Positions 45,379 through 61,481 are shown, counted from the stretch's first letter. The stretch: DNA of 64,000 bases from Candidatus Pelagibacter sp. (GCF_052046145.1 NZ_JBNGZR010000001.1:1031199-1095198); one strand, 5' to 3'. Program-made: numbers and translations. Notes: generated from the sequence alone by a model not told the origin.

Positions 45379-45388
45379 TTTAAATTAA

Positions 45389-46711
45389 TTATTTCTTTGC
45401 CATTATAGCATTTAAAACAAATGCTAGTAACCCAGCAGGTATAAGTCCAGTTGTTAACAGTAGTTTTAAACTTATTCCAAAATCTGGAATATTTTTCACA
45501 AAGTCTGGTAACAATGACATTCCAATTCCAAAAGACAAAGAAAGAGCTAAGATTAATAAATTTCTTTGATCCATTTCTGCCCTTGAAATCAATTTAATGC
45601 CAGCAGCTACAATCATACCAAACATAATAATTGCTGCACCACCTATCACAGATTCTGGCATCGCTGCAATTATTCCACCTAATTTTGGAAATAATCCCAT
45701 AAGAACCAAAACTATTCCAGCTATAGTTCCAACATGTCTACTTACAACTCCTGTAAACGCAACTAGTCCAGCATTTTGCGAATAAGATGTATTTGGCATC
45801 GCATTAAATATTGCACCAAATGCAGTACCAACACCATCTGCCATAATTCCACCTGATATTTCTTTATCCGTTGCCTCTCGTTTAGCACCACCCATTGTCG
45901 TAGCACTTATGTCTCCAATTGTTTCAATTGTTGTAACAACTGACATAAACAACATTAAAATTATTGCACCAGGTACAAAATCAATTCCATATTGAAGTGG
46001 CATTGGAAATGCAAACCATGATGCGGAAGCAATTTTTCCGTAGTTAACCATTCCTAGTGCAGCTGCAACTATGAAGCCAGCTACTATTCCAATTAAAATT
46101 GATCCTGCAGAAGCCATCCCTTTTCCTCTAAGATTAAAAAAGATAGCAACTATAAACACTGTGAAAGCAACAGTTAAATGATTTGCATTTGCAAAGATTT
46201 CAGGTTTATTATTCATTAACCATCCACCTCCACCAGCATACATAAAACCAACTTTAAGCAAACTAAATCCAATCATTAGTACAACTATTCCTGTGACCAA
46301 TGGTGGGAATAGATGTCTTATTGGTTTTAAAACTTTTCCAATAAAAATTTGAAAAATTCCTCCAATGAACGCTGCTGTAAATACAGCACCTAATCCTGCT
46401 GCTTTAAATGGTAGCATAATTGGTATAAACGCAAAACTTGTTCCTTGAACAATAGGAAGTCTTGCACCAATTTCTTTGTATCCAACTGTTTGGATAATTG
46501 TTGCAACTCCTGCAACAAACAAAGCCATTTGAATCAAAAATATTTTTTGTTCAGGCGTTTGACCAAAAACTCCAGCCACAATAATAGGAACCGTTATATT
46601 ACCAGCAAACATTGCTAGTACGTGCTGAATTCCTAAAGGTATGGATTTATTTAATGGAAGTTTTTTATCCGGACTGTTTGTAGAGCCCGCTTTTGTTTTT
46701 TTTGAAGCCAT
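45389..46711 (-). CDS. NCS2/NAT family nucleobase permease (xanthine/urate)
   Basis: QHVLAMF, QGTSFAF, ETIGD, SYSQNAGLVAFTGV NAT signature. Confidence 0.9.
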   Translation of the reverse strand: MASKKTKAGSTNSPDKKLPLNKSIPLGIQHVLAMFAGNITVPIIVAGVFGQTPEQKIFLIQMALFVAGVATIIQTVGYKEIGARLPIVQGTSFAFIPIMLPFKAAGLGAVFTAAFIGGIFQIFIGKVLKPIRHLFPPLVTGIVVLMIGFSLLKVGFMYAGGGGWLMNNKPEIFANANHLTVAFTVFIVAIFFNLRGKGMASAGSILIGIVAGFIVAAALGMVNYGKIASASWFAFPMPLQYGIDFVPGAIILMLFMSVVTTIETIGDISATTMGGAKREATDKEISGGIMADGVGTAFGAIFNAMPNTSYSQNAGLVAFTGVVSRHVGTIAGIVLVLMGLFPKLGGIIAAMPESVIGGAAIIMFGMIVAAGIKLISRAEMDQRNLLILALSLSFGIGMSLLPDFVKNIPDFGISLKLLLTTGLIPAGLLAFVLNAIMAKK

Positions 46712-46849
46712 ATAACCTCCGTCGTTAACTAAATAGACGTTACATTATTGGCTATGAATTAATATAAAAAAACTGATTAGTTTAGAACAACTCCACCTTA
46801 GATAGTGAAAAAAACCTATAATGAGCAGATTTATTTTAATTTATAAAAT

Positions 46850-47155
46850 TTAAAAGCAACCGTTTGAAACAAAACCCACAACTATATTCTCTGAATTTAT
46901 TTCAAACCTACGTTCGCATGGAACAAGGTATTTTTTACTATTATAAACAAACTCAAAATTGCCTTTAGCATTTTTAAAATCTTCGTCTGGTTTTCCAAGC
47001 TCCATCTGAAGTTCACTAGCTGATTTTCCAAGAAATTTACTTAATTTTTCATTTTCCTTTTCAACAATAGCATCTGTTTTATCTTTAACAGTTTGACACC
47101 CTGAAAAAAAAATTAATATAATTACAAGACTTATTAATGATTTAAATTTTGACAT
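46850..47155 (-). CDS. Hypothetical lipoprotein
   Basis: Lipobox FSGC; LGKPD; two further Cys. Confidence 0.72.
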   Translation of the reverse strand: MSKFKSLISLVIILIFFSGCQTVKDKTDAIVEKENEKLSKFLGKSASELQMELGKPDEDFKNAKGNFEFVYNSKKYLVPCERRFEINSENIVVGFVSNGCF

Positions 47156-47281
47156 AAGTTTAAATTAACATCTTTTGTTTCACAAATTATTAACTTTAAA
47201 GTTGTATAAATAATTTATTTCTTATTACTTTTAAGTTTAATTATAGTAACAATTGTGTTCTTTATTTGATGGTCCAAGCAT

Positions 47282-47872
47282 ATGAATGAAAAAGCCCTAG
47301 AAAAGATACTAAATATATTTTTAAAAGAAGTTTTACCCTTAACTGAACAAGGTGTTGCCAAAGGTAGTAAAATATTTGGTGCCGCAATAATTAAAAAAGA
47401 TGATTTATCTCTTGTAGTTTCAGAAACAAACAATGAAATAGAAAATCCATTGTGGCATGGTGAGATGCATACTCTTAAAAAATTTTATGAATTAGATGCA
47501 AATAAAAGACCAAAAGAAAAAGACTGCATGTTCTTAAGTTCTCATGAGCCTTGCAGTATGTGTTTGAGTGCAATCACATTTTCTGGATTTGATAATTTTT
47601 ATTATTTGTTTCCGTATACTGCCACAAATGATGAATTTAATATTCCACATGATTTAAATATACTCAAAGAAGTATTTAAAATTAATGATGGAGAATATAA
47701 TAAAGAAAATTCCTATTGGAAAAGTCAGAATATAAATTTACTTGTTGAAAATTTACCTTCTTCAAAAAAAGAAAACATTTTAAATCAATTAGACGAAATT
47801 AAAAAAAAATATAAAAAATTATCAAATCAATATCAGGAAAATAAGGATGGAAATTCTATACCATTAAATTAA
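47282..47872 (+). CDS. CDA-fold Zn-dependent nucleoside/nucleobase deaminase, substrate unknown
   Basis: IFGAAI, LWHGEMH, HEPCSMC (HxE...PCxxC). Confidence 0.85.
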   Translation: MNEKALEKILNIFLKEVLPLTEQGVAKGSKIFGAAIIKKDDLSLVVSETNNEIENPLWHGEMHTLKKFYELDANKRPKEKDCMFLSSHEPCSMCLSAITFSGFDNFYYLFPYTATNDEFNIPHDLNILKEVFKINDGEYNKENSYWKSQNINLLVENLPSSKKENILNQLDEIKKKYKKLSNQYQENKDGNSIPLN

Positions 47873-47875
47873 TTA

Positions 47876-49366
47876 ATGAATACAAACCTTAAAATTTCAA
47901 ATGTAACTAAAATATATCCTGGGTGTGTTGCAAACGACAATATTTCACTCGAATTTAATAGTGGTAAAATTTATGCTCTTCTCGGAGAAAATGGTGCTGG
48001 AAAATCTACACTAGTTAAAATTCTATCAGGCGTCATCATTCCTGACGAAGGTAAAATTTATTTAAATGAAAATAATCTAAAGCTTAATTCGCCATTAGAT
48101 GCAAAAAAAAATGATATCGGAATGGTATTCCAGCATTTTAATCTTTTTGAAACATTGTCCGTATTTGAAAACTTAATAATAGATTCAGATGAACAAAGGG
48201 AAAGTTTAAGAGAAAAAATTGATACAATTATGAAAAAATATAATTTTTCAATTGATCTTGATATTCCTATTCTAAATCTATCAGCAGGTCAAAAACAGAA
48301 AGTGGAAATAATAAGATGCCTAATAAGGAATCCAAAAGTTTTAATTATGGATGAACCAACATCTGTATTAACAGAACAAGAAACGAGTGAATTATTCTTA
48401 TCTTTGAAAAAATTTTCAGAAGAAGGAATTTTAATTATTTATATAACACATAAACTAAAGGAAGTTATGCAGCTTTGTGATGAAGTTGCTGTAATGAGAA
48501 GAGGAAAGTTAGTTTCTGTAAGTGAAATAAAGAACGAAAATATTGAGTCACTTGCTAACAAAATGGTGGGTCAGAACCTAAAAACAATTAAGAAAAAAAA
48601 AGCAAAAACTTCATCAGATCAATTAATTAAAATAACGAATCTTAATTTTACAAGTGAAGACCCCTTTGAAACAAATTTAACGGATATTAATTTTTCTGTT
48701 AATCGAGGGGAGTGTTTAGGAATTGCTGGTATATCAGGAAACGGACAAAGTGAATTATTTCAAGTATTAAGTGGTGAAATTATTTCGGAAAAGAACTCTA
48801 TAGAATTTAACAATAATTACATAGGAGATTTAAGCCCTCAAGAAAGAAGAGAATATTTGATGGCCTTTTCTCCAGAGGATAGGCTTGAGCAGGCTGCAAT
48901 TCCACAAATGAAAATTTTTGAAAATGTAGCTCTAAACAATTTTAAATCATCAAATTTTTTTAATAATGGATTAATAAACGAAAACAAAATTAAAGAACAT
49001 TCCAAAAAAATAATTTCAGATTTTAATGTTAATACGGACAACATTGAATTAAAAAGCCAATTTTTGTCCGGAGGTAATCTTCAAAAATTAATTATTGGAA
49101 GAGAATTAATAACATCTCCAGATTTATTAATTTGTTTTAATCCAACTTGGGGTCTAGATGTTGGAGCAATAAATTATATCCACGAAACATTGATTAAAAT
49201 CAATGAACAAAATAAATCAATTATATTAATATCTACAGACACTGATGAGTTATTAAAATTAAGTGATAAAATTTCAGTGATTCATAAAGGAAAGTTGTCA
49301 AAAATTATGAATTCTGAAGAAGTTACCTCTGAAAAACTTGGGATACTAATGGGAGGAGCAAATTGA
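47876..49366 (+). CDS. Nucleoside/purine ABC transporter, double ATPase
   Basis: GENGAGKST, LSAGQKQ, MDEPT; second domain LSGGNLQK and degenerate NPTWGLDVGA. Confidence 0.9.
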   Translation: MNTNLKISNVTKIYPGCVANDNISLEFNSGKIYALLGENGAGKSTLVKILSGVIIPDEGKIYLNENNLKLNSPLDAKKNDIGMVFQHFNLFETLSVFENLIIDSDEQRESLREKIDTIMKKYNFSIDLDIPILNLSAGQKQKVEIIRCLIRNPKVLIMDEPTSVLTEQETSELFLSLKKFSEEGILIIYITHKLKEVMQLCDEVAVMRRGKLVSVSEIKNENIESLANKMVGQNLKTIKKKKAKTSSDQLIKITNLNFTSEDPFETNLTDINFSVNRGECLGIAGISGNGQSELFQVLSGEIISEKNSIEFNNNYIGDLSPQERREYLMAFSPEDRLEQAAIPQMKIFENVALNNFKSSNFFNNGLINENKIKEHSKKIISDFNVNTDNIELKSQFLSGGNLQKLIIGRELITSPDLLICFNPTWGLDVGAINYIHETLIKINEQNKSIILISTDTDELLKLSDKISVIHKGKLSKIMNSEEVTSEKLGILMGGAN

Positions 49367-50427
49367 TTAAAATCGTAAAAAGAGACCAACCATCAAGAGC
49401 TATTTTTTTCTTTACACCTGTGTTGGCTATTTTTCTAACATTAGTAGCGGGAGGTTTGATTTTTTTTATTTTAGGTTTTAAACCATTTGAAGCTCTTAAA
49501 TTTTTTTTCATAGTTCCAATTGCAGATAAATATGGTTTCAGTGAATTACTATTAAAAGCTACACCTCTTTGTTTAATAGCAATCGGTTTATCTTTTTGTT
49601 TTAAAAGTAATAACTGGAATATTGGAGCCGAAGGACAATTAACTTTTGGGGCGATAGTTTCTGGAGGAGTTGCATTATTGTTTTATGAGCAAGAAGGATT
49701 TTACATTCTTCCAACAGTAATTTTAGCTGGTGCAATTGGTGGTATGCTTTATGCATCAATACCCGCAATATTAAAAACTTACTTTAATACAAATGAAATA
49801 TTAGTAAGTCTTATGTTGGTATATGTCTCAAAATTAATTTTAGACTATCTTGTTGTTGGCCCTTGGAGTAATCCAGAGGGGTTTAATTTTCCTGAAACTA
49901 GACAGTTCAGTGACTCTGCTAAACTTCCGTTATTATTTGAAGGACTGAGAATTCACGCGGGAATATTCTTAGCTTTAGCTGCGGTGGTTATCAGTTGGTT
50001 TGTTTTTTATAAAACGTATTTAGGGTTCCAAATGAAAGTTTCGGGTTTTAGTTTAAAGACAGCAAAATATGCCGGATACAAAGGTAAAAAAATGATCATC
50101 CTTGTTTTTCTAATAAGTGGTGCTTGCGCGGGTTTAGCTGGAGTTGGAGAAATAACTGGACCTATTGGACAGCTTCATAGAGAAATTTCTCCAGATTATG
50201 GTTTTACTGCTATAATTGTAGCGTTTTTGGGTCGTTTACATCCTGTCGGTATTATCTTTGCATCTCTAGTCGTTGCAATAACTTATCTGGGTGCTGAGAC
50301 AGCTCAAATATTTATGCAAATACCTAAATATACTGGTCAGGTTTTTCAAGGAATGATTTTATTTTTTCTTCTTGCATCAGATTATTTACTTTTTTTCAAA
50401 ATTAAATTTATAGGTTTAAAAAAATGA
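49363..50427 (+). CDS. Nucleoside/purine ABC transporter permease
   Basis: NIGAEGQ, NEILVSLM, YGFTAIIVAFLGRLHP. Confidence 0.9.
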   Translation: MIKIVKRDQPSRAIFFFTPVLAIFLTLVAGGLIFFILGFKPFEALKFFFIVPIADKYGFSELLLKATPLCLIAIGLSFCFKSNNWNIGAEGQLTFGAIVSGGVALLFYEQEGFYILPTVILAGAIGGMLYASIPAILKTYFNTNEILVSLMLVYVSKLILDYLVVGPWSNPEGFNFPETRQFSDSAKLPLLFEGLRIHAGIFLALAAVVISWFVFYKTYLGFQMKVSGFSLKTAKYAGYKGKKMIILVFLISGACAGLAGVGEITGPIGQLHREISPDYGFTAIIVAFLGRLHPVGIIFASLVVAITYLGAETAQIFMQIPKYTGQVFQGMILFFLLASDYLLFFKIKFIGLKK

Positions 50428-51356
50428 TCATCGATATAAATTTTATTGGACTGATAATTGCATCAATCATGGCCTCCGCTGTTCCATTAATCCTAGCGTC
50501 TTGTGGTGAACTGATTACAGAAAGGTCTGGAGTTTTAAACCTTGGTGTTGAAGGAATGATGATCATTGGTGCTATATCAGGCTTTGCACTAATGACAGTG
50601 ACAGGAAGTTTAATTATTGCAATTTTTGGTGCAATGTTAGCTGGAGTTTTAATTTCAACTATTTTTGCATTCCTGACGCAAACATTGATCACAAATCATG
50701 TTGCTACTGGTTTGGCGCTTACCATATTTGGAATTGGTATTTCTGCGATGATAGGAAAAAATTTTGTAGGTATTCCTGGAAAAGAGTTTCCTGTTTTATT
50801 TGAAGGTTTAAAAGATACAATACCACTTTTAGGTCCAATATTATTTGGACATTCAATTGTTTTTTATTTTGCTTTTGCCCTTCCCTTCATAACTAGCTAT
50901 TTTTTAAAAAAAACGAAAATTGGATTAATTGTAAGAGCTGTAGGAGACTCACCTGAGTCTGCATCTAATCAAGGAATAAATGTTAGGCTAGTTCGTTACG
51001 CTTGTATACTTTATGGAGGCGCAATGAGTGGACTTGCTGGTGCATATTTATCCATGATTTATACTCCTCAGTGGATTGAAAATATGACAGGTGGAAGAGG
51101 TTGGATCGCATTGGCTCTGGTGGTTTTCTCGACCTGGAACCCAATTAAAATTTTGATTGGTGCTATGATTTTTGGCGGGTTAACAATTATTCAATTTCAT
51201 ATGCAAGCAATTGGGGTAAGAATTCCTGTGCAATTTTTAACAGCTCTACCTTACATCGTTACAATAATAGTTTTAGTTGTAATTTCTCGTGATAGTAGAA
51301 AAATTAGGCTAAGTACTCCTAGTTCTCTGGGGAAATCTTTTCATAAAGACAATTAA
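50424..51356 (+). CDS. Nucleoside/purine ABC transporter permease
   Basis: ERSGVLNLGVEG, GRGWIALALV, LPYIVT. Confidence 0.9.
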   Translation: MIIDINFIGLIIASIMASAVPLILASCGELITERSGVLNLGVEGMMIIGAISGFALMTVTGSLIIAIFGAMLAGVLISTIFAFLTQTLITNHVATGLALTIFGIGISAMIGKNFVGIPGKEFPVLFEGLKDTIPLLGPILFGHSIVFYFAFALPFITSYFLKKTKIGLIVRAVGDSPESASNQGINVRLVRYACILYGGAMSGLAGAYLSMIYTPQWIENMTGGRGWIALALVVFSTWNPIKILIGAMIFGGLTIIQFHMQAIGVRIPVQFLTALPYIVTIIVLVVISRDSRKIRLSTPSSLGKSFHKDN

Positions 51357-51433
51357 TTCTAAAATAATTATTTTTTTTAAGATAATTTAATTTAAATTTA
51401 AATAATTAAAAAATCAAAAGGGGAAATAAATTT

Positions 51434-52504
51434 ATGCATAAATTTTTAATTCGATCTTTCGTCTCTTCTTTAGTTTTATTATTTACATTAACTGTAGCTG
51501 CAGTTGCCAAAGATGTTAAGGCAGCATTTGTTTATATTGGTCCAACTGGTGACCATGGATGGACATATCAGCATGATGTAGGTAGAAAAGCTGTTGAAGC
51601 TGCCGGATTTAAAACAACTTACGTAGAAGGTGTTCCAGAAAGTGCCGATGCTGAGAGGGTTCTTAGACAATTAGCTAACTCTGGTCATGATGTTATCTTT
51701 ACAACTAGTTTTGGATATATGAATCCAACTAACAAAGTTGCAAAAGAATTTCCAAATGTAAAATTTGAACATGCTACTGGATACAAAAGAGAACATCCAA
51801 ATGTTTCAACATACGCAGCTAGATTCTATGAAGGTAGAACTATCTTAGGAACAATTGCTGGAACTATGACAAAATCAAATGTTATTGGTTATGTTGCATC
51901 TTTTCCAATTCCTGAAGTTATCAGAGGTATCAATTCATTTACTTTAGCAGCTCAAAAAGTTAACCCAAATATTAAAACTAAAATTGTTTGGGCTTTCACT
52001 TGGTATGATCCAGGTAAAGAAGCAGAGGCAGCAAAAGCTTTAATCGATCAGGGTGCTGATGTAATTGCTCAACATACAGATAGTACTGCTATTGTTCAAA
52101 TGGCTGAAAAAGCTGGAGTATATGCTTTTGGACAAGCAAGTGATATGGACAAGTTTGCTCCTAAAGCTGTATTAACTTCAGTTGAGAACAATTGGGGACC
52201 ATATTACGTAGACAGAGTTAAAGCAGTTGCAAATGGTACATGGAGCCAAAAAGATACTTGGCATGGTATTGGAGATGGTATGGTTGTGATATCAGATTTG
52301 GATTCACAAATGCCAGCTGACCTGAGATCAAAAGTTAAAAAACTTCAGGCAGATTTAGCATCTGGAAAAGTTCATTCTTTCACAGGACCAATTTATGACC
52401 AGAAAGGTAACTTGATGGTTGCTGAAGGAAAAACTGCAGATGATGGAATGCTTGCAGGAATGATGACTTATGTTAAAGGTGTTGAAGGAGATATACCGAA
52501 GTAA
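51434..52504 (+). CDS. BMP-family purine/nucleoside-binding periplasmic protein
   Basis: GDHGWTYQH, TTSFGY, EHATGY, PIPEVIRGIN, WYDPGKE, QHTDS. Confidence 0.9.
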   Translation: MHKFLIRSFVSSLVLLFTLTVAAVAKDVKAAFVYIGPTGDHGWTYQHDVGRKAVEAAGFKTTYVEGVPESADAERVLRQLANSGHDVIFTTSFGYMNPTNKVAKEFPNVKFEHATGYKREHPNVSTYAARFYEGRTILGTIAGTMTKSNVIGYVASFPIPEVIRGINSFTLAAQKVNPNIKTKIVWAFTWYDPGKEAEAAKALIDQGADVIAQHTDSTAIVQMAEKAGVYAFGQASDMDKFAPKAVLTSVENNWGPYYVDRVKAVANGTWSQKDTWHGIGDGMVVISDLDSQMPADLRSKVKKLQADLASGKVHSFTGPIYDQKGNLMVAEGKTADDGMLAGMMTYVKGVEGDIPK

Positions 52505-53096: not shown

Positions 53097-54005
53097 TTAT
53101 TTAAATAATAAAACTAAAACTGCAAGAACGATAAGTGCAATTATTGAAGATATTAAGATATACAACCTATGAATGTTTCTTCCTCTTAAATTAAAATAAT
53201 GTCGTGCTACTCCAGTAATAACTGCTAATGCACATAATATTAACCAATTATACTGATGATAAACTAAGAAACTTGAGTGTCCAGAAAGCATTATAAACAA
53301 TACTAAAAAAGTGGAATAATTATTATGAATTGATCTCTGTTTAGCTGCAAGAGATAAACTCATATCAAATTTTTCACCTCTTTTACTACTGGTGATGATG
53401 TTCATTTGATTGGGTATAATAACTGTAAAAACATTACCAAACATATTGGTTCCTATAATTAGTCCAACACTTAAAATTGCAAATTTTGGTCCAAACAATT
53501 TTGTTAAACCAAAGGAAACAGCTGCTAATAAAATAATTGCTGTAGATATAAATAGTACATTATTTTCAATCAATTTTGATTTACACAATAGATCGTATAT
53601 AAACCAAAAAATAATTAATGATAAAAGCGAGATAATAATGGCGTAACTAGGAGGCATCAACAGAACACGTTTATCGACCATTAATACACCAGCGTTATAA
53701 TAATAAATTACAACTAAGAGCAACATTCCTGTTACAAAAGTTAGGTAACTTTGCCATTTAAAAATTACTAATCTATTTAAATAATCCTGTGGTGGTGAGG
53801 TTTTTAACCTTGAAAGTTTATAAAAAAAACCAGAATGCATCAGATATCCTTCTCCATCGACATCATCACTTGTTATATTTTTATTTAAATTATTGTCTAA
53901 GTAATTAAATAAAAAACTGTTACCTACCCATAATATTGCAAATACTACATGGCCCCATCTTAGAATAACTTCTAACCATTTAATTGTATAAGGTAAAAAT
54001 TCCAT
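53097..54005 (-). CDS. puuD: PuuD-type membrane urate oxidase, membrane domain only
   Basis: RWGHV..WVG.SF, FKWQSY.T..TG, IIPNQ, AKQRSIHNNY, RHYFN; ends at 302 aa with no CxxCH. Confidence 0.85.
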   Translation of the reverse strand: MEFLPYTIKWLEVILRWGHVVFAILWVGNSFLFNYLDNNLNKNITSDDVDGEGYLMHSGFFYKLSRLKTSPPQDYLNRLVIFKWQSYLTFVTGMLLLVVIYYYNAGVLMVDKRVLLMPPSYAIIISLLSLIIFWFIYDLLCKSKLIENNVLFISTAIILLAAVSFGLTKLFGPKFAILSVGLIIGTNMFGNVFTVIIPNQMNIITSSKRGEKFDMSLSLAAKQRSIHNNYSTFLVLFIMLSGHSSFLVYHQYNWLILCALAVITGVARHYFNLRGRNIHRLYILISSIIALIVLAVLVLLFK

Positions 54006-54475
54006 CAGTATTTTATTTTATCTACTTTTTTATCCCAAATTTCAAAAGCTTTTAAAGCTTCTTCTCTAAGCATTTGTACCATTTTAATTTTTCTATCATC
54101 AATTTTTTTTGGAATTTCTGTATAAATAAAAGAATCATCAAAATCTATATTTTTTGCATCTTCTCTAGTGTTAGCATAATATATTTTACCTAATCTTGAC
54201 CAATAAATTGCTGAAAGACACATTGGGCAAGGTTCACAAGATGTATAAATCTCGCATCCAGATAGATCAAAAGTATTTAAATTTTTACAAGCTTCTCGAA
54301 TTGCTACTATTTCTCCATGAGCAGTTGGATCATTTGTGGAAGTAACTTTGTTAGAGCCCTCTGCAATAATCTTTTGATCCTTAACTATAACACTTCCAAA
54401 GGGACCTCCTATAGTATTCGCACTTTTTATTGAAAGTTCAATGGCTTTTGCCATAAATTTTTTTTTATCTTCCAT
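54005..54475 (-). CDS. guaD: Guanine deaminase, CDA-fold (B. subtilis GuaD type)
   Basis: GGPFGSVIV, NDPTAHGE, EPCPMCLSAIYW, FDDSFIY. Confidence 0.88.
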   Translation of the reverse strand: MEDKKKFMAKAIELSIKSANTIGGPFGSVIVKDQKIIAEGSNKVTSTNDPTAHGEIVAIREACKNLNTFDLSGCEIYTSCEPCPMCLSAIYWSRLGKIYYANTREDAKNIDFDDSFIYTEIPKKIDDRKIKMVQMLREEALKAFEIWDKKVDKIKY

Positions 54476-56780
54476 TTTTTTTTTTTATTTTATTTTTAAT
54501 TTTGTTAATACTCATTAAAATTCTTTCAGGTGTTGCTGGCGCATTAAGTTCTGGTACAAACTGATAATTTCCAACTGAAGCAACTGCATCTTTAATTGCA
54601 TAAAAAACACTCATAGCTAACATTAGAGGAGGTTCGCCTGTTGTCTTTGCTTTATTAACAACTTTTTCTTTATTTATTCCATCTTTAAAAATTTCTACAT
54701 TAAATTTTTTTGGAATATCACTTACAGCAGGAATTTTATACGTTGATGGAGAGAAAGTTGTAATTTGACCATTTGATTTCCAATTTAGTTCTTCAATAGT
54801 TAACCAACCTTGTCCTTGAACAAAACCCCCTTCGATCTGACCTAATTCAAGTGCAGGATTTATTGGTTTTCCTGCATCATGCAAAATATCAACTCTTTCT
54901 AGGATATTTTCACCTGTTAGCGTATCTATAGTTACTTCTGAAACAGCTGCACCATAACAAAAATAATAAAATGGTCTTCCTCTAAATTTTTTTTTATCAA
55001 AGTTTATTTTTGGCGTTGAATAAAAACCTGAGGATGAAAGAGAAATTCTATTTAAATATGCTTCTTGGATAATACTTTTAAATTCAAATTGTCTGTTTCC
55101 AAATATTATATATTGATCCTTATAAATTGCTTCTTGATTGTAAATCTTATATTTTTTTTTAATAAATTTTTCTAAATTTAATTTAATTTTTGCTACTGCA
55201 TTTAATGCTGCAGCACCATTAAGGTCTGTGGTTGAAGATGCAGCGCTAGCTGAAGTATTTGGTACCTTAGCTGTATTTGTTGATGAAATATGTACTAAAT
55301 TATATGGTAATCCCAAGGAATTGGCCACTAGTTGAGCTATTTTTGTATGAGTCCCTTGACCCATTTCTATACCACCATGGTTCAAGTACACACTTCCATC
55401 TGTATAAATATGCACTAAAGCACCAGCTTGATTTAAATGAATTGTTGTAAATGAAATCCCAAATTTTACTGGTGTAATAGCTATACCCTTCTTTTTAAAT
55501 TTATTTTTTTCATTGAATTTTTTTATCTCTGAATATCTTTTCTTATAATTAGATTTATTTTCTAAATTTTTAAATATTTCATTAATCACATTGTCTTCAA
55601 TAGTCATTCCATAGTGAGTTATATTTTTTTTATCTTTTTGATAAAAATTTTTCTTTCGAACTTGAATAGGATCTATTTTTAAATACCTTGAAATATTATC
55701 AATAACATTTTCTATAGCCATCATTCCTTGATTTCCACCAAAGCCTCTAAATGCAGTTGAAGTTGGAATATTTGTCTTGCATAAATTATTTGTTACCTCG
55801 ATATCTGATATGTAATACGCATTGTCTATATGAAGAAGAGCTCTTTCATTTATTGCTGCTGATAAATCAGGCGACATTCCACAATTTGATGATAAGTTAA
55901 TTTTTAATCCTTCAATAATTCCTTCATCATTAAATCCAACTTCGTATTCAGATAAAAATTCATGCCTTTTACCAGTCAAAATTATATCATCATCTCTATC
56001 TAGTCTTAATTTCACAGGCTGACCTGTTTTTTTTGCCAACAACGCACAAATACATGCAGTCATAAAATTTGTCTCTTTCCCTCCAAATCCACCTCCAATT
56101 CTTCTTACTTCAACATTTATAGAATTACTTTTCTGATTAAACATTTTTGCAATTAATTGTTGTGTCTCAGAAGGATGTTGTGTTGAACTGTAAACTAAAA
56201 AATTATCATCTTCTTTAGGTATAACAAACGCTGCCTGACCCTCTAAATAAAAGTGTTCTTGACTTCCGGTTGTAAAGTTTCCTTTCAAATTATATTTTGA
56301 ATTTTTAATTTTCTTAGAAGGGTTTCCTTTTTTAATTTTTCTAGGCTTAAATAAAAATTGTTTTTTATTTAAAGCATCTTTTATTGTGATAACTGGTTTT
56401 AAATCTTTATAAGTGATTTTTGCCTTTAATACTGCTTTTCTTGCAAGTTCAGTAGTTGTGGCGGCTACAGCGAACAAAGGTTGACCAAAAAACTCAACTT
56501 TTTTATCTGGAAATATTGGATCACCATCAAAAACAGGGCCTACATCGTTCCTTCCTGAGATATCACTTTGAGTGACTACTGATATCACCCCTTCACTTTT
56601 TTTTACATCGCTTAAGTCTATTTTTTTGATTATTGCATGAGCTTTTTTACTTAAACCAATAGCACCATAAATTGTATTTTTTGGTTCATTAATGTCGTCA
56701 GTGTATTCAGCGTATCCACTTACATGCTTATAAGCACTATCATGTGGTCTTACATCATTAATATAGTTCTCTTTGCTCAT
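54465..56780 (-). CDS. xdhB: Xanthine dehydrogenase molybdopterin subunit
   Basis: QEHFYLEGQ, GGGFGGKE, AFRGFGG.QG, GQIEGGFVQG, GEPP. Confidence 0.96.
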   Translation of the reverse strand: MSKENYINDVRPHDSAYKHVSGYAEYTDDINEPKNTIYGAIGLSKKAHAIIKKIDLSDVKKSEGVISVVTQSDISGRNDVGPVFDGDPIFPDKKVEFFGQPLFAVAATTTELARKAVLKAKITYKDLKPVITIKDALNKKQFLFKPRKIKKGNPSKKIKNSKYNLKGNFTTGSQEHFYLEGQAAFVIPKEDDNFLVYSSTQHPSETQQLIAKMFNQKSNSINVEVRRIGGGFGGKETNFMTACICALLAKKTGQPVKLRLDRDDDIILTGKRHEFLSEYEVGFNDEGIIEGLKINLSSNCGMSPDLSAAINERALLHIDNAYYISDIEVTNNLCKTNIPTSTAFRGFGGNQGMMAIENVIDNISRYLKIDPIQVRKKNFYQKDKKNITHYGMTIEDNVINEIFKNLENKSNYKKRYSEIKKFNEKNKFKKKGIAITPVKFGISFTTIHLNQAGALVHIYTDGSVYLNHGGIEMGQGTHTKIAQLVANSLGLPYNLVHISSTNTAKVPNTSASAASSTTDLNGAAALNAVAKIKLNLEKFIKKKYKIYNQEAIYKDQYIIFGNRQFEFKSIIQEAYLNRISLSSSGFYSTPKINFDKKKFRGRPFYYFCYGAAVSEVTIDTLTGENILERVDILHDAGKPINPALELGQIEGGFVQGQGWLTIEELNWKSNGQITTFSPSTYKIPAVSDIPKKFNVEIFKDGINKEKVVNKAKTTGEPPLMLAMSVFYAIKDAVASVGNYQFVPELNAPATPERILMSINKIKNKIKKKNGR

Positions 56781-58217
56781 TTAATTAACTCTCGTTAGCT
56801 TATTAGAATGTATTTCTACGAAACATTTCATCAATAAATTTTTTGCTATCTCTAGTCTATATTCTTTACTTGCTCTCATATCCCCTATAGGACTTAGGTC
56901 TTTATCAAGATAATTTTTGGCTTGATTAAAAGTACTTAAATTAAGAGGTTTATTCTTAAGAATTTTCTCACAGGCTTTAGCTCTTTTTGGTACAGCTGCC
57001 ATACCTCCAAAAGCAATAAAAACCTCTTTAATTTTATTTTTATCAATTTCAAAATTAAAAGATCCACAAACAGATGAAATATCATCATCAAATCTTTTTG
57101 ATATTTTAAATGCTTTAAAAATATTTTTCTTAAATAATGGTATTTTTATTGAGTGAATAAATTCATTCTTTTTTAATTTAGTTTTTCTATAATCAAGGAA
57201 AAAATTGTTTATAGGAATAACTTTTCTTTGATTGAAGCTTTCAATTAAAATTTCTGCATTTAAAGATAACAAAATTGGTAATGTATCACCTATCGGAGAT
57301 GCTGTTGCAATGTTACCACCTATAGTTCCTACATTTCGAATTTGAACAGAACCATATCTTTTAAGAACTAAATAAAAATCTGGATAATGTTTTTTAATTT
57401 CTTTTTCAAATTTTATTAAAGGTGTAGAGGCGCCAACCTCAAGGTAATTTTTATTTACTTTTATAAAGTCTAATTCTTTTATTTCTTTTAAATCAATTAT
57501 AAAAGGAATTTCTTTTCTTTCTTTTGTAACTTTTAAAGATAAGTCTGTTCCACCTGCAAGAAAACTAAAATTTGAGTATTTTTTAATTATATTTTTTAAA
57601 TCCTTAATATTCTTTGGTGAAAAATAAATTTTATCATCTTTTTTAATATAAATATTTTTTGGTTTAATTTTTTTTAATAATTGAATAACTTTATTATTAT
57701 TTTTACTAAATTGATCATTCCTGTTTTTCTTGTCTAAACTTTTTGCAGCATCTAATATAGGTCTATATCCAGTGCAACGACATAAATTACCTGATATAGA
57801 ATCTGTTATTAATTCATTATTAAGATTTTTGTTATTTTTAAACATTGAAAATAAAGCCATAACAAATCCTGGTGTACAGAAACCGCATTGGGAACCATGA
57901 AATTTTACCATCGCATCTTGTACAGGGTGAAGTTTGCCATCTTTGGAAACCAAATCTTCTACAATTAAAAGTTGTTTACCATTTAATGATGGAACAAATG
58001 AAATACAGGAATTAATTGCTTTATATATAATCTTATTATCGACTAATTCACCTAAAACAATTGTACACGCGCCACAACCACCCTCTGAACATCCTTCTTT
58101 GGTTCCAGTCTTTTTTAATTCGGTTCTAATATAATTAAGTATGGTTTGATTTGGATCAGGATTATTGATTACTATAAGTTTATCATTTAATAGAAATTTA
58201 ACAGAGCTCGATATCAC
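56781..58217 (-). CDS. xdhA: Xanthine dehydrogenase 2Fe-2S/FAD subunit (GTG start)
   Basis: GCSEGGCGAC, QCGFCTPG, CRCTGY, AGGTD, GGNIATASPIGD, KISKRFDDDIS. Confidence 0.96.
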   Translation of the reverse strand: MISSSVKFLLNDKLIVINNPDPNQTILNYIRTELKKTGTKEGCSEGGCGACTIVLGELVDNKIIYKAINSCISFVPSLNGKQLLIVEDLVSKDGKLHPVQDAMVKFHGSQCGFCTPGFVMALFSMFKNNKNLNNELITDSISGNLCRCTGYRPILDAAKSLDKKNRNDQFSKNNNKVIQLLKKIKPKNIYIKKDDKIYFSPKNIKDLKNIIKKYSNFSFLAGGTDLSLKVTKERKEIPFIIDLKEIKELDFIKVNKNYLEVGASTPLIKFEKEIKKHYPDFYLVLKRYGSVQIRNVGTIGGNIATASPIGDTLPILLSLNAEILIESFNQRKVIPINNFFLDYRKTKLKKNEFIHSIKIPLFKKNIFKAFKISKRFDDDISSVCGSFNFEIDKNKIKEVFIAFGGMAAVPKRAKACEKILKNKPLNLSTFNQAKNYLDKDLSPIGDMRASKEYRLEIAKNLLMKCFVEIHSNKLTRVN

Positions 58218-58568
58218 TTAACTACCTCTATAAGTAGAATAACTCCAAGGTGAAACAAGTAAAGGAACATGATAGTGCTGTGAGGGATCTGAAATACCAA
58301 ATCTGATAATAACATCATCCAGGAATGGAACATCGCTAGCTGCAGATGTATTTTTAAAATAATCACCAATATGAAAAACTAATTCATATTTACCCTTAAT
58401 AAAAATATCGCCCTCAGCTAATGGTGAATTAGCTCTACCATCGTCATTGAGTTTTGTTGACGTTAATTTTTTTCGTTCTGAATTATTAATATAAAACAAC
58501 TCAACTAGGATACCATTGCCAGGTTTACCAGAATACACATCTAAAACATGAGTTGTGAGCTTTGTCAT
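58218..58568 (-). CDS. uraH: 5-hydroxyisourate hydrolase
   Basis: LTTHVLD, HYHVPLL, C-terminal YRGS. Confidence 0.96.
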   Translation of the reverse strand: MTKLTTHVLDVYSGKPGNGILVELFYINNSERKKLTSTKLNDDGRANSPLAEGDIFIKGKYELVFHIGDYFKNTSAASDVPFLDDVIIRFGISDPSQHYHVPLLVSPWSYSTYRGS

Positions 58569-58616: not shown

Positions 58617-59114
58617 ATGAGAACAATAGATAACATTAACGATCTTAACAAGTCTGATTTTTTGTCTTTATTTGGTAATGTTTTTGAAAAAACTGAGTCA
58701 GTTGCAGTGGAAGCATTTGAGTCAAAACCATTTAAAAACTTCGAAGATATTATGTTTAAAATGCTTGATATTTATGAAAATTACGAAAAGAATAAAATTT
58801 TAGAGATTTTAAATGCTCATCCTGAGCTTGCTGTAGCAAAAAAAATGACCTCCGAATCTATATCAGAACAAGCTTCTGCAAAATTAAACCAATGTTCTAA
58901 TGATGAATATGAAGAATTTAAAAAATTAAATTCAGAATATAAAAAAAAGTTTAATTTTCCTTTTATAATTGCCGTAAAAGGTAAAGATAAAAATGAAATT
59001 TTGAATAATTTTAGACAAAGAATACAAAGTGATGTAGAAAGTGAATTCCTTGAAGCAAAAAAACAAGTAAAAAAAATCGCAACCTTTCGTTTGAATGAAA
59101 TAAATAAAAAATGA
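58617..59114 (+). CDS. uraD: OHCU decarboxylase
   Basis: VFEKT, AHPEL, SISEQ, YKKKFNFPFIIAV, QVKKIATFRL. Confidence 0.92.
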   Translation: MRTIDNINDLNKSDFLSLFGNVFEKTESVAVEAFESKPFKNFEDIMFKMLDIYENYEKNKILEILNAHPELAVAKKMTSESISEQASAKLNQCSNDEYEEFKKLNSEYKKKFNFPFIIAVKGKDKNEILNNFRQRIQSDVESEFLEAKKQVKKIATFRLNEINKK

Positions 59115-60097
59115 AAAAATTTATAAGTGCAAAAATGATTAACTTAGCGGATCCAAGAATTGGATCTAAAGTAATTTTTAAGACTGACGATTTTTTTGCA
59201 GCTGCTCACAGAATATTAAATATTAAAACTCCAGTTTTTAAAGATGGACTATTTGACAAACATGGTAAATGGATGGATGGATGGGAAACAAGAAGAAGAA
59301 GATCAAAAGGTTTTGATTATTTAATTTTAAAACTTGGTAAACCTGGAAAGATATTTGATATAGACATTGACACAACACATTTCAATGGAAATCAGCCCAC
59401 ACATGCTTCGTTAGAGGGTTGCTTAAGTAAAACAAAGCCTAATAAGAAAACTAAATGGATTTCTTTACTGAGCAAAAAAAAACTTGGGCCAAGCCGAAAC
59501 CATAGCTTCAAATCAAACAACAAATCTGTTTTTAATTATATAAGACTAAATATTTTTCCAGATGGTGGAGTTGCAAGGTTAAGGCTTTATGGAAAAATTG
59601 AAATGGAGAAAAACTTTTTAAATAACAAAACTATTAACCTTACATCTGTTTTAAATGGCGCTTCAATTATTGGTTGTAATAATGAACATTTTGGCAGAGC
59701 TGAAAATATCATAGCACCTGGTAAAGGAAAAAATATGGGAGATGGTTGGGAAACAAGAAGAAGTAGAGGAAAAAACTTTGATTGGCTTATAATAAAATTT
59801 GGAAAACCAGGATTAATAAAAAAGCTAGAGATAGATACCCATCATTTTAAAGGAAACTATCCCGATAGTTGTTCAATTCAAACTGCAAGCATTTCAAAAA
59901 AACTGTCCAATAAATCAATTGTCAATAATTCAAAAAATTGGAAGTTTATTATAAATAAGTCAAAACTGTCAGCTCACAAGAAACATATTTTTAAAAAATT
60001 CTTAATTAAGAGAAGTAAGGAAAATTATCTTAAAATAAATATCTATCCAGACGGTGGAATTTCAAGAATAAGGGCATTTGGAAATTTTGTGAGATGA
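59111..60097 (+). CDS. alc: Allantoicase
   Basis: Two repeats with DGWETRR, IDT.HF.GN, PDGG..R.R. Confidence 0.95.
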   Translation: MKKFISAKMINLADPRIGSKVIFKTDDFFAAAHRILNIKTPVFKDGLFDKHGKWMDGWETRRRRSKGFDYLILKLGKPGKIFDIDIDTTHFNGNQPTHASLEGCLSKTKPNKKTKWISLLSKKKLGPSRNHSFKSNNKSVFNYIRLNIFPDGGVARLRLYGKIEMEKNFLNNKTINLTSVLNGASIIGCNNEHFGRAENIIAPGKGKNMGDGWETRRSRGKNFDWLIIKFGKPGLIKKLEIDTHHFKGNYPDSCSIQTASISKKLSNKSIVNNSKNWKFIINKSKLSAHKKHIFKKFLIKRSKENYLKINIYPDGGISRIRAFGNFVR

Positions 60098-60585
60098 AAA
60101 TAATAAAAGCAAAAAAAATTACTAAAAAAAATTTTTCTAAATTTGGTCAATTAATAGATACGTCAAAAAAAAATCCTATAAATATTAATGATGGGTATGC
60201 AAAAAGATTTGATAATTTAATTAACGTAGATGCATCTAAAAACAAAGGGAAAGCAATTGTTAGTATTTTTAAAGCAAAAAAAAGAAGGTTTCCTATGAAA
60301 ATTGACATGATGGAAAAACATCCTTTAGGAAGCCAAGCCTTTATACCAATGGAAGATACAAAATTTTTAGTATTTGTAGCACCAAAAGGAGATAAACCAG
60401 ATGTAAATAAAATCCAATCCTTTTTAGTCCCAAAACAAACTGGAGTTAATTACAATGCTGGTATTTGGCACTTTCCGTTGATTTCTATGAAAAATATGAA
60501 TTTTCTAATTGTTGATAGAAAAGGAAAAGGAAACAATCTTGTTATTTATAAATTTAAAAAAGATAAAATTATTTTGAAAAAATGA
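60094..60585 (+). CDS. allA: Ureidoglycolate lyase
   Basis: FSKFG, MEKHPLGSQAFIP, GVNYNAGIWHFP, VDRKG. Confidence 0.92.
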   Translation: MKIIKAKKITKKNFSKFGQLIDTSKKNPININDGYAKRFDNLINVDASKNKGKAIVSIFKAKKRRFPMKIDMMEKHPLGSQAFIPMEDTKFLVFVAPKGDKPDVNKIQSFLVPKQTGVNYNAGIWHFPLISMKNMNFLIVDRKGKGNNLVIYKFKKDKIILKK

Positions 60586-61481
60586 AAAAAAAATACCCAA
60601 GAGATTTAGTGGGATATGGTTCCAAAAAAGTTAAGGTAAAGTGGCCTGGTAATGCTAAGTTAGCTTTGCAATTTGTACTTAATTACGAGGAGGGAGCAGA
60701 AAATTGTACTCTTCATGGTGATAAAACTTCAGAAGTATTTTTATCAGAAATTATAGGAGCAAAACCAATTAAAGGTCGACACTTAAATATGGAATCAATT
60801 TATGAATATGGATCAAGAAGAGGGTTTTGGAGAATTCATGATCTATTTAATAAAAAGAAAATTCCACTTACTATTTTTGGAGTTGGTATGGCATTGGAGA
60901 GAAATAAAGAAGTTTGTTCTGCTATAAAAAAAGCAAAGTATGAAGTTGCTTGTCATGGGTGGAGATGGATTGATTATCAAAATGTATCAAAGAAAAAAGA
61001 AAAGAATGATATGAAACTTGCAGTCAAATCTATAAAAAAGATTTTTGGCTATCAACCTGCTGGTTGGTACACTGGTAGGTGTAGTACAAATACTTTAGAT
61101 TTAGTAATCGAAAATGGTGATTTTTTATACTGTAGCGACACATATAGTGATGATCTTCCTTATTGGATAAAAAAAGGTAGTAAAAAACAACTCATGGTTC
61201 CTTATACACTCGATAACAATGATATGAGATTTGCAACTAATCAAGGATTTAATTCGGGTGAACAATTTTATAATTATTTAAAAGATAGTTTCGATGCCCT
61301 TTATGAGGAAGGAAAAACTTCACCAAAGATGATGTCGGTTGGCTTACATTGTAGATTAATTGGAAGACCTGGTAGAATACAGTCTCTTAAAAAATTTTTA
61401 AATTACATTACAAAATTTAAGGATATTTGGATCTGCAAAAGAGTAGATATAGCTAAACATTGGATAAAAAATTACAGTTAA
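60582..61481 (+). CDS. puuE: Allantoinase PuuE (polysaccharide deacetylase fold)
   Basis: YPRDLVGY, NYEEGAE, YEYGSR, HGWRW, MSVGLHCR. Confidence 0.95.
   Translation: MKKKYPRDLVGYGSKKVKVKWPGNAKLALQFVLNYEEGAENCTLHGDKTSEVFLSEIIGAKPIKGRHLNMESIYEYGSRRGFWRIHDLFNKKKIPLTIFGVGMALERNKEVCSAIKKAKYEVACHGWRWIDYQNVSKKKEKNDMKLAVKSIKKIFGYQPAGWYTGRCSTNTLDLVIENGDFLYCSDTYSDDLPYWIKKGSKKQLMVPYTLDNNDMRFATNQGFNSGEQFYNYLKDSFDALYEEGKTSPKMMSVGLHCRLIGRPGRIQSLKKFLNYITKFKDIWICKRVDIAKHWIKNYS

What the first reader, a model, noticed from the sequence alone, without database searches (positions are those of the whole stretch)
45389..61481. Self-contained 16-kb purine uptake-salvage-catabolism cluster
Seen: two uptake systems, two deaminases, PRTase, xdhAB, puuD, uraH, uraD, puuE, alc and allA together. 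Established chemistry: guanine to xanthine to urate to HIU to OHCU to allantoin to allantoate to ureidoglycolate to glyoxylate plus urea. Inference: an accessory niche module in a streamlined genome. Purine use by SAR11 has been reported in general, so novelty lies in the architecture rather than the pathway.
Basis: partly seen in the sequence, partly recalled or inferred. Interest (0 to 1): 0.55.

Follow-up and report, generated by a model that had tools for sequence, protein, structure and literature searches.

The report
Known SAR11 purine catabolism island
This is a real, intact 16-kb gene cluster that lets a minority of SAR11 ocean bacteria import purines and break them down to glyoxylate, urea and ammonia, but the cluster, its gene order, its patchy distribution and its ocean-wide recruitment have already been published.

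Summary
The accessory reading is supported. XdhB orthologues occur in 5 of 36 same-genus genomes and about 31 of 200 family genomes, always at the same chromosomal site.

The claim that the architecture is new is not supported. Haro-Moreno 2020 described it as a genomic island in HIMB083 with Tara recruitment. Braakman 2025 published this gene order. An ISME J 2025 paper named the genus 'Xanthinipelagibacter' for the trait.

'Self-contained' is overstated. XdhC, Moco synthesis and urease are encoded 110-280 kb away. The lipoprotein, a permease and PRT are core genes, not island genes.

Small additions from this work:
- The site is modular, and two genera carry the block on opposite sides of DUF1330.
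- PuuD lacks the fused cytochrome c once called invariant, and a stand-alone cytochrome c (61489-61812) travels with the island in this genus only.
- The ABC binding protein resembles purine-base binders.
- Deaminase 2 is the only candidate adenine deaminase.

The scan had already flagged the split PuuD and the orphan deaminase separately.

The parts
45389..46711 (-). NCS2-family xanthine/urate-type permease (PbuX-like). It is a separately variable cassette between ibpA and the lipoprotein gene.
   Evidence: TIGR00801 353.5 bits (cut-off 291.8); TIGR03173 pbuX 409.1 (cut-off 414.15). Present in the window, L030, L031, L045 and L046. Absent in the otherwise full loci L024, L025 and L047.
46850..47155 (-). 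101-aa lipoprotein-like ORF (signal peptide plus lipobox Cys) of unknown function. It is a core resident of the site, not island cargo.
   Evidence: Translation. No Pfam or NCBIfam family. Orthologues at 28-94% identity sit beside the purine permease/PRT in 29 of the 31 fetched loci (not seen in L028 and L035), with or without catabolic genes. The Atlas search gave only 'hypothetical' clusters and a weak BamE/OsmE lead at 0.87.
47282..47872 (+). Deaminase 2: a divergent 196-aa CDA-fold zinc deaminase (HGE and PCSMC motifs) 3 bp upstream of the ABC ATPase. Substrate unknown. It is the only candidate for adenine to hypoxanthine in this genome.
   Evidence: PF00383 E = 3.7e-10. Best PDB hit is B. 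subtilis GuaD at only 3e-6, over the N-terminal 100 aa. The genome lacks PF00962 and a true Ade. Deaminase 2 is absent from the ABC-only loci L018 and L032 and present in all full loci.
47876..52504 (+). ABC importer: a double-ATPase subunit, two permeases and a Bmp/PnrA-family periplasmic binding protein (51434-52504). Probably a high-affinity purine-base (guanine/adenine) importer.
   Evidence: The binding protein matches PDB 3S99 at 1.4e-119 and AtzT (6PI5) at 3.4e-109. AtzT binds guanine with KD 110 nM and adenine with 2.5 uM, and 3S99 holds adenine (PMC6834077).
52555..53079 (-). Purine phosphoribosyltransferase (type I PRT, the salvage branch). A core gene of the site.
   Evidence: PF00156 95 bits. 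Best PDB hits are purine PRT GpT-2 and HGPRTs, 2e-10 to 1e-7. Present in 30 of the 31 fetched loci (all but L028) regardless of catabolic genes.
53097..54005 (-). PuuD membrane urate oxidase: a full-length DUF989/Urate_ox_N domain of 302 aa with no fused cytochrome c domain.
   Evidence: PF06181 286.7 bits, model positions 2-293 of 295. Only 17 bp separate it from PRT. All 120 closest relatives are 274-313 aa (nearly all 302-303) and carry PF06181 only. The g4 orthologue is 280 aa and also has no tail.
54005..54475 (-). Deaminase 1: a GuaD-type (CDA-fold) guanine deaminase, 156 aa, ending in Tyr.
   Evidence: PDB 1WKQ/1TIY, B. subtilis guanine deaminase, E = 8e-48 over residues 5-155. HGE and PCPMC motifs.
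54465..58217 (-). Xanthine dehydrogenase: XdhB (Mo-pterin subunit, 54465-56780) and XdhA (2Fe-2S/FAD subunit, 56781-58217).
   Evidence: TIGR02965 1103.7 (cut-off 849.5) and TIGR02963 576.5 (cut-off 467).
58218..58568 (-). UraH, 5-hydroxyisourate hydrolase. First gene of the minus-strand operon uraH-xdhA-xdhB-deam1-puuD-PRT.
   Evidence: TIGR02962 125.4 (cut-off 87.45). Gaps between genes are 0-17 bp or overlaps.
58617..61481 (+). Plus-strand operon uraD-alc-allA-puuE: OHCU decarboxylase, allantoicase, ureidoglycolate lyase and PuuE allantoinase, joined by 4-bp overlaps.
   Evidence: TIGR03164 161.5 (cut-off 96); TIGR02961 390.2 (cut-off 278); NF002949 179 (cut-off 230, E = 6e-53); TIGR03212 485.1 (cut-off 425).
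61489..61812 (-). Stand-alone periplasmic monoheme cytochrome c with a signal peptide, CAACH and a distal Met.
   Evidence: PF13442 45.8 bits, PF00034 33.1 bits, SorU-like 83.7 bits. Present beside the block in all 8 same-genus loci whose distal end was captured (window, L016, L025, L030, L031, L045-L047; L024 is cut off by its contig end). Absent from the 11 syntenic loci without PuuD. Orthologue-level hits occur only in the 6 XdhB-positive genomes of the genus.

Best explanation
This is the previously described SAR11 aerobic purine-degradation island in its fullest, consolidated form. It sits at a conserved chromosomal site in a 1.33-Mb Pelagibacter-type genome.

Proposed working, inferred from homology:
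1. Free purine bases enter through a PbuX-like NCS2 symporter (xanthine/urate type) and a high-affinity ABC system whose binding protein resembles guanine/adenine binders.
2. The core PRT diverts part of the bases to nucleotides (salvage).
3. GuaD-type deaminase 1 converts guanine to xanthine plus NH3. Deaminase 2 probably handles another aminopurine, most plausibly adenine.
4. XdhAB oxidises hypoxanthine and xanthine to urate and yields NADH. It uses Moco and an XdhC chaperone encoded elsewhere.
5. Membrane PuuD oxidises urate to 5-hydroxyisourate. It probably passes the electrons to the island's own periplasmic cytochrome c and on to the respiratory chain, without making H2O2.
6. UraH and UraD give (S)-allantoin. 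PuuE, Alc and AllA give glyoxylate plus two urea.
7. Because this genome also has an unlinked urease, the urea nitrogen can be recovered as ammonium. Glyoxylate can feed malate or glycine synthesis.

The cluster has five or six transcription units, no regulator and no mobility genes.

Shown here: gene identities, intactness, linkage and distribution. Inferred: substrates of the transporters and of deaminase 2, the PuuD-cytochrome partnership, and the physiological use.
For: - Gene identities above curated cut-offs; GuaD homology; binding-protein homology to purine-base binders.
- The gene order matches genes a, b, c, e-k and m-o of Braakman 2025 Fig. 3. Their genes d (MFS permease) and l (allantoin NCS1 permease) are absent here.
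- The cluster was described as a genomic island of the HIMB083 genomospecies and as the trait of 'Xanthinipelagibacter', with urease in 6 of 8 genomes and xdhAB under purifying selection, pN/pS 0.084.
- Patchy distribution: XdhB orthologues in 5/36 genus genomes and about 31/200 family genomes.
- Same site in three genera, with modular variants.
- Unlinked helpers are present: split XdhC with MoaA/C/E, MoeA, UreABC and UreG.
- PuuD function rests on the Agrobacterium fabrum knockout and complementation of Doniselli 2015.
Against:
- AllA and the pbuX subfamily score just below curated cut-offs.
- PRT scores far below the HGPRT equivalog cut-off, 49 against 150, so its base preference is unknown.
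- PuuD lacks the cytochrome domain that Doniselli 2015 regarded as essential. Genera g4 and g9 have no cytochrome c next to PuuD, so the electron route is uncertain.
- No regulator or riboswitch was found, so induction by purines is unproven.
Confidence: 0.9

Rival explanations
1. The block is an ancestral, vertically inherited locus that most SAR11 lineages have lost (differential loss plus homologous recombination across conserved flanks), rather than a horizontally acquired island.
For: - It occupies the same chromosomal site (POP-ibpA...HhH-GPD-EamA-msrA) in genera g1, g4 and g9.
- XdhB identity falls in step with the flanking genes. It is 92-99% where POP is 85-98%, 77-78% where POP is 82-83%, and 70-73% where POP is 36-70%.
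- There is no tRNA, integrase or real flanking repeat, and no deviation in GC.
Against: - The block lies on opposite sides of DUF1330 in g1 (PRT | block | DUF1330) and in g4/g9 (PRT-DUF1330 | block | HhH-GPD), which suggests two insertion events or a local rearrangement.
- Within one genus it is present in only 5/36 genomes, which would need many independent losses.
- No rooted tree was built.
Confidence: 0.5
2. In this strain the cluster serves mainly to harvest nitrogen (five N per guanine) rather than energy or carbon. It should be read together with the unlinked urease as one nitrogen-scavenging system.
For: - A urease locus with ureABC and ureG is present at about 917-922 kb of the genome.
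- Urease is rare in SAR11 (about 5%) and is enriched among surface purine catabolisers (Braakman 2025). It occurs in 6 of 8 'Xanthinipelagibacter' genomes.
- Two uptake systems point to scavenging at low concentrations.
Against: - The pathway also yields NADH, respiratory electrons and glyoxylate whatever happens to the nitrogen.
- No nitrogen-responsive regulator or site was identified.
- This is a question of emphasis and does not exclude the main explanation.
Confidence: 0.5
3. The small cytochrome c at 61489-61812 has nothing to do with purine catabolism. It is a general respiratory or SorU-like carrier that merely sits at the edge of a variable region.
For: - Its best family match is SorU-like sulfite-dehydrogenase cytochrome, 83.7 bits against a cut-off of 100.
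- Homologues at 35-50% identity occur in genera without any XDH, namely g10, g12, g14 and g17.
- g4/g9 islands lack it.
- It is a separate transcription unit, convergent with puuE.
- No longer, fused relatives were found by the word-based search.
Against: - Within the genus, orthologue-level copies occur only in the 6 XdhB-positive genomes and in none of the other 30.
- It stays next to the block even in the short versions that lack alc-allA-puuE, L016 and L045.
- It matches the heme domain of three fused PuuD representatives at 46-51 bits.
- PuuD elsewhere normally carries such a domain (62 of 99 representatives).
Confidence: 0.35

Closest known systems
SAR11 purine degradation cluster / genomic island of HIMB083-type genomes (Haro-Moreno et al. 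2020, PMC7318151; Braakman et al. 2025, PMC11698098 Fig. 3; 'Xanthinipelagibacter' in PMC12636525)
   Same: Same organism group, same genes and same order: NCS2 permease, deaminase 2, ABC transporter, PRT, PuuD, deaminase 1, XDH Mo and FAD subunits, HIU hydrolase, OHCU decarboxylase, allantoicase, ureidoglycolate lyase and PuuE. It has the same accessory status (18-22% of genomes against about 16% here) and the same association with urease.
   Different: Nothing essential differs.
- Braakman 2025 does not mention the edge cytochrome c or the lipoprotein (0 occurrences of either word), and Haro-Moreno 2020 does not mention cytochrome c. I did not search PMC12636525 for these words.
- The papers label both deaminases 'tadA' and the ABC system 'nupNOPQ' (nucleoside). 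Here deaminase 1 is GuaD-type and the binding protein resembles purine-base binders.
- This window lacks their genes d (MFS permease) and l (allantoin NCS1 permease).
PuuD, the integral-membrane cytochrome c urate oxidase of Agrobacterium fabrum (Doniselli et al. 2015, PMC4562309)
   Same: A full-length 8-TM DUF989 domain (PF06181, positions 2-293 of 295) encoded within a purine catabolic cluster next to xdh, uraH and uraD.
   Different: The C-terminal cytochrome c domain, reported there as invariant and probably essential, is missing. A separate secreted monoheme cytochrome c is encoded 7.5 kb away at the island edge in this genus, and no linked cytochrome exists in genera g4 and g9.
Classical proteobacterial purine catabolic clusters (Pseudomonas/Rhodobacter type: xdhABC, guaD, puuE/uraD, alc, allA)
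   Same: The same enzyme families and the same urea-releasing allantoicase/ureidoglycolate lyase route. XdhAB is of the two-subunit Rhodobacter type (TIGR02963/TIGR02965).
   Different: There is no xdhC in the cluster. The genome's only XdhC is split into 109-aa and 226-aa ORFs beside a CoxL-like enzyme. The cluster has no transcriptional regulator, uses a CDA-fold rather than an amidohydrolase-type guanine deaminase, and is tightly packed with overlapping genes.

Membership tests
Published SAR11 purine degradation island/operon | Gene content and order a, b, c, e, f, g, h, i, j, k, m, n, o as in Braakman 2025 Fig. 3 | tested here: met
   The annotations follow the order listed. Their genes d (MFS permease) and l (allantoin NCS1 permease) are absent here; they vary between genomes in that paper too.
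Published SAR11 purine degradation island/operon | Accessory: present in a minority (about 18-22%) of SAR11 genomes | tested here: met
   XdhB orthologues (at least 68% identity) in about 31 of 200 family genomes and 5 of 36 genus genomes. Absent from 11 of 18 syntenic same-genus loci.
Published SAR11 purine degradation island/operon | Host is a streamlined SAR11/Pelagibacter genome | tested here: met
   1,330,391 bp on one contig and 99.87% complete; about 29% GC in the window. The nearest named PuuD relative is 'Candidatus Pelagibacter sp.'. No taxon name is given by the tools, so assignment to 'Xanthinipelagibacter' is an inference from the trait set.
Xanthine dehydrogenase XdhAB (Rhodobacter type) | Both subunits score above the equivalog cut-offs | tested here: met
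   TIGR02965 1103.7 against 849.5, and TIGR02963 576.5 against 467.
Xanthine dehydrogenase XdhAB (Rhodobacter type) | A dedicated XdhC chaperone encoded with xdhAB | tested here: not met
   There is no XdhC in the window. The only XdhC is split (109 + 226 aa) at about 799 kb beside a CoxL-like Mo-hydroxylase. One relative, L016, does carry a split XdhC inside the island.
PuuD cytochrome c urate oxidase (COG3748) | Full-length 8-TM DUF989 domain in a purine catabolic context | tested here: met
   PF06181 286.7 bits, positions 2-293 of 295, flanked by PRT and guanine deaminase/xdh.
PuuD cytochrome c urate oxidase (COG3748) | Fused C-terminal cytochrome c domain with CXXCH | tested here: not met
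   The protein ends at residue 302, 17 bp before PRT, and has no CXXCH. Among 99 full-length family representatives, 62 are fused, 26 have tails without heme motifs and 11 have no tail.
CDA-fold guanine deaminase (B. subtilis GuaD) | Zinc motifs H-x-E and PCxxC plus full-length similarity to GuaD | tested here: met
   Deaminase 1: HGE and PCPMC motifs; 1WKQ at E = 7.7e-48 over residues 5-155. Deaminase 2 has the motifs but only 3e-6 similarity over 100 residues, so I do not file it as GuaD.
Uricolysis and allantoin enzymes (UraH, UraD, PuuE, Alc, AllA) | Equivalog cut-offs reached | tested here: met
   UraH 125.4 against 87.45; UraD 161.5 against 96.25; PuuE 485.1 against 424.6; Alc 390.2 against 277.9. 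AllA alone is below its cut-offs (179 against 230) though E = 6e-53, so AllA is inconclusive on the cut-off and clear at family level.
Mobile genomic island (integrative element) | Integrase or recombinase, tRNA target, flanking direct repeats, atypical composition | tested here: not met
   No tRNA in the window. Only AT-rich chance repeats. No recombinase among the annotated ORFs. GC is 28-33%, like its surroundings.

The most novel reading that the evidence does not exclude
In SAR11 the urate oxidase PuuD works as a two-gene enzyme: a tail-less DUF989 membrane subunit plus a separately secreted monoheme cytochrome c that takes its electrons. The island carries its own cytochrome (and in one relative its own XdhC) only in the genus whose genomic background lacks that helper. 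Genera g4 and g9 use a homologous cytochrome encoded elsewhere. On this reading the fused cytochrome of PuuD is dispensable in cis, and streamlined genomes package pathway helpers into islands according to what the recipient lacks. The scan has flagged this split-PuuD idea as a separate finding.
Probability: 0.4. Interest if true: 0.45.

Novelty: already known. Interest (0 to 1): 0.22.

Why it matters
Purines exuded by Prochlorococcus and other plankton are a substantial flux of nitrogen, carbon and energy in the ocean, and SAR11 is the most abundant consumer. That significance is already established in the literature for this exact cluster, so this report mainly confirms and corrects.

- It fixes the island's true limits: the catabolic block plus the cytochrome c. 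The lipoprotein, a permease and PRT are core genes.
- It shows the pathway depends on unlinked XdhC, Moco and urease genes.
- It corrects the published 'tadA' label and questions the 'nupNOPQ' nucleoside label.
- It documents that two genera carry the block at different junctions of the same site.
- It points to two testable gaps: the electron acceptor of tail-less PuuD, and the substrate of deaminase 2.

Tried and rejected
- **Riboswitch or structured RNA.** I looked in the unusually long 570-bp region between the NCS2 permease and deaminase 2. Rfam gave nothing at gathering score over the whole window, and only chance-level hits at E up to 1 in 44700-62300. The region instead holds a small lipoprotein ORF.
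- **Mobile-element signatures.** No tRNA and no meaningful direct or inverted repeats at the borders.
- **The stand-alone cytochrome c as a fission product of PuuD.** The word-based search for longer relatives found none. phmmer against 150 PuuD-family representatives hit only 3 of 62 fused tails. This is compatible with fission but not demonstrated.
- **A universal PuuD-cytochrome c linkage.** Rejected. Ten g4/g9 loci have PuuD and no CXXCH-bearing small ORF within about 20 kb.
- **'1 TGA inside' the XdhB matches of g4/g9 as a possible recoding signal.** Rejected. The ORF is intact at 768 aa in L040, directly abutting xdhA, so the stop is a boundary effect of the match.
- **Canonical adenine or adenosine deaminases.** None were found in the genome.
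- **Phylogenetic trees.** I built none, so the direction and number of gains or losses are not resolved.

Full report
**1. Observation**

The window is G000:C1:1031199-1095198 of a complete 1,330,391-bp single-contig genome, with about 29% GC across the window.
- NCS2 permease (45389-46711, minus strand)
- CDA-fold deaminase 2 (47282-47872)
- an ABC importer with a Bmp-type binding protein (47876-52504)
- PRT (52555-53079, minus)
- PuuD (53097-54005, minus)
- deaminase 1 (54005-54475, minus)
- XdhB and XdhA (54465-58217, minus)
- UraH (58218-58568, minus)
- UraD, Alc, AllA and PuuE (58617-61481, plus)

XdhA, XdhB, UraH, UraD, Alc and PuuE exceed their equivalog cut-offs. AllA and the pbuX subfamily fall just below theirs but have E-values of 6e-53 and 2e-122. 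The flanks are ibpA on the left and DUF1330 plus an HhH-GPD glycosylase on the right.

The gene spacing gives five or six transcription units with translational coupling, through overlaps of 1-11 bp or gaps of 0-17 bp. No regulator, riboswitch, tRNA or border repeat was found.

**2.

A 101-aa ORF with a signal peptide and a lipobox cysteine lies in the long spacer between the permease and deaminase 2.

A 107-aa secreted monoheme cytochrome c lies 7 bp beyond the stated end, at 61489-61812 on the minus strand. It has a CAACH motif and a distal Met.

**3. The cluster is not self-contained**

Several required functions are encoded elsewhere in the genome:
- XdhC exists only as two ORFs (109 + 226 aa) at about 799 kb. 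It sits beside a CoxL-like Mo-hydroxylase, a MocA-like transferase, MoaA/C/E and an MsrPQ-like pair.
- MoeA is at 873 kb.
- UreABC and UreG lie at about 917-922 kb.

The urease matters because the Alc/AllA route releases urea. With urease, all ring nitrogen becomes available as ammonium.

**4. Distribution and architecture**

*Frequency.* True XdhB orthologues (at least 68% identity) occur in 5 of 36 near-complete same-genus genomes. Across the family they occur in about 31 of 200 genomes, concentrated in genera g4 (19/24) and g9 (6/6).

*Method.* I anchored on the neighbouring prolyl oligopeptidase, fetched 18 same-genus loci, and mapped the window's proteins onto them.

*Core of the site.* The core is POP, ibpA, the lipoprotein, a permease, PRT, DUF1330, HhH-GPD, EamA and msrA. 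In minimal loci the permease is a different NCS2-family protein of 428-436 aa. So 'uptake plus PRT' is core, as Braakman et al. inferred.

*Variants found:*
- ABC transporter without catabolism (L018, L032)
- a short block PuuD-deam1-XdhBA-UraH-UraD-cytochrome c (L016, L045)
- the full form seen here (L024, L025, L030, L031, L046, L047)

The PbuX-like permease is itself optional: it is absent in L024, L025 and L047.

*Other genera.* In g4 and g9, ten loci carry the short block at the same site. There it lies between DUF1330 and HhH-GPD, not between PRT and DUF1330. No cytochrome c is nearby. Allantoicase sits at another locus.

*Allantoin-only genomes.* Six same-genus genomes have allantoicase without XdhB. 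This matches the 'allantoin-only' type in the literature.

*Inheritance.* XdhB identity declines in step with the flanking genes, and nothing marks the block as mobile. Differential loss or recombination across conserved flanks is therefore at least as likely as horizontal acquisition. The two junctions argue for more than one event.

**5. Prior knowledge**

- Haro-Moreno et al. [quoted passage not shown] They mapped its Tara Oceans recruitment.
- Braakman et al. 2025 (PMC11698098) drew the operon gene by gene in the order found here. They gave frequencies of 18-22% and about 5% for urease, defined assimilation-only, allantoin-only and full-catabolism types, and analysed metagenomes and metatranscriptomes.
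- PMC12636525 made xdhAB, uraA, nupNOPQ and urease the hallmark of a named offshore genus and measured purifying selection on these genes.

The architecture is not new.

(a) *Deaminase 1.* It is a full-length homologue of B. subtilis CDA-fold guanine deaminase (1WKQ, E = 8e-48). It is not TadA as the papers label it.

(b) *CDA-fold genes in the genome.* There are only three: the two in the island and a 389-aa open frame elsewhere that is RibD-like by its length (I did not verify it). There is no ADA-type or Ade-type deaminase.

(c) *Deaminase 2.* It is the only candidate for adenine to hypoxanthine. It is divergent, it has intact zinc motifs, it lies 3 bp upstream of the ABC genes, and it is present only where catabolism is present.

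(d) *ABC binding protein.* It is very close to 3S99 and AtzT (1e-119 and 3e-109). Those proteins bind free guanine (KD 110 nM) and adenine (PMC6834077). A base importer is therefore more likely than a nucleoside importer.

(e) *PuuD has no fused cytochrome.* It is a full-length DUF989 protein, whereas Doniselli et al. 2015 described the fused cytochrome c as invariant and probably essential. All 120 closest relatives share the tail-less form. Among 99 full-length family representatives, 62 are fused, 26 have long tails without heme motifs and 11 have no tail.

(f) *The stand-alone cytochrome follows PuuD within this genus.* Orthologue-level copies occur in all 6 XdhB-positive genomes and in none of the 30 others. 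The gene stays next to the block in the short versions too.

(g) *The linkage does not extend beyond the genus.* g4 and g9 lack it. Homologues at 35-50% identity exist in genera without XDH. The cytochrome resembles only 3 of 62 fused PuuD heme domains.

I read this as moderate support (about 0.4) for a two-gene PuuD in which the island supplies a helper that the recipient background lacks. The island-borne XdhC in L016 fits the same logic. The scan's notes show that the split PuuD and the orphan deaminase were already flagged as separate findings. I reached the split-PuuD reading before consulting those notes.

**7. Verdict**

'Accessory niche module' is supported. 'Self-contained' and 'novel architecture' are not. 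This is a correct re-discovery of a published SAR11 island, so novelty is 'already known' and interest is low. The modest residual interest lies in the PuuD electron acceptor and in the substrate of deaminase 2.

Noticed in passing
window 61489-61812 and 53097-54005: PuuD lacks its usual fused cytochrome c, and a stand-alone secreted monoheme cytochrome c sits at the island edge. Within this genus the cytochrome occurs only in the XdhB/PuuD-positive genomes. In genera g4 and g9 PuuD has no linked cytochrome.
   Followed up: partly
PuuD family representatives P0126-P0275: The PuuD/DUF989 family is more varied in architecture than first described. 26 of 99 full-length representatives have 100-320-aa C-terminal tails without CXXCH (many are 520-560 aa in total). 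A few proteins of 549-733 aa matched PuuD in two stretches.
   Followed up: no
G000:C1:564738-564932 (L002): A second, partial Urate_ox_N hit (model positions 174-238, 203-aa open frame) lies far from the cluster. It probably corresponds to the short 4-TM DUF989 variant with unrelated gene context that Doniselli 2015 mention.
   Followed up: no
whole genome G000: Only three PF00383 (CDA-fold) genes are detectable: the two island deaminases and a 389-aa open frame at about 615 kb that is RibD-like by its length. No stand-alone tRNA adenosine-34 deaminase TadA was seen, which would be unusual for a bacterium. This rests on one Pfam family search only.
   Followed up: no
L033 (G000:C1:790000-806000), ORFs 8824-9504 and 9504-9833: The genome's only XdhC is split into separate XdhC_CoxI (109 aa) and XdhC_C (226 aa) ORFs beside a CoxL-like Mo-hydroxylase, a MocA-like transferase, MoaA/C/E and an MsrPQ-like pair. 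The same split XdhC pair lies inside the purine island of a relative (L016 10817-11832).
   Followed up: partly
window 46850-47155: A small lipoprotein of unknown family is conserved next to the purine permease/PRT in 29 of the 31 SAR11 loci examined, whether or not catabolic genes are present. The only lead is a weak BamE/OsmE-like feature match.
   Followed up: partly
L035-L044 versus the window, L016, L025, L030, L031, L045-L047: The catabolic block is inserted on opposite sides of the small DUF1330 gene in genera g4/g9 and in the window's genus. DUF1330 itself occurs in one or two divergent copies at this site, and a GT17-like gene is sometimes present between DUF1330 and PRT.
   Followed up: partly
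window 51434-52504: The ABC binding protein, labelled as part of a nucleoside system (nupNOPQ) in the literature, is about as close to the purine-base binders 3S99 and AtzT as those two are to each other. This suggests guanine/adenine base uptake.
   Followed up: partly
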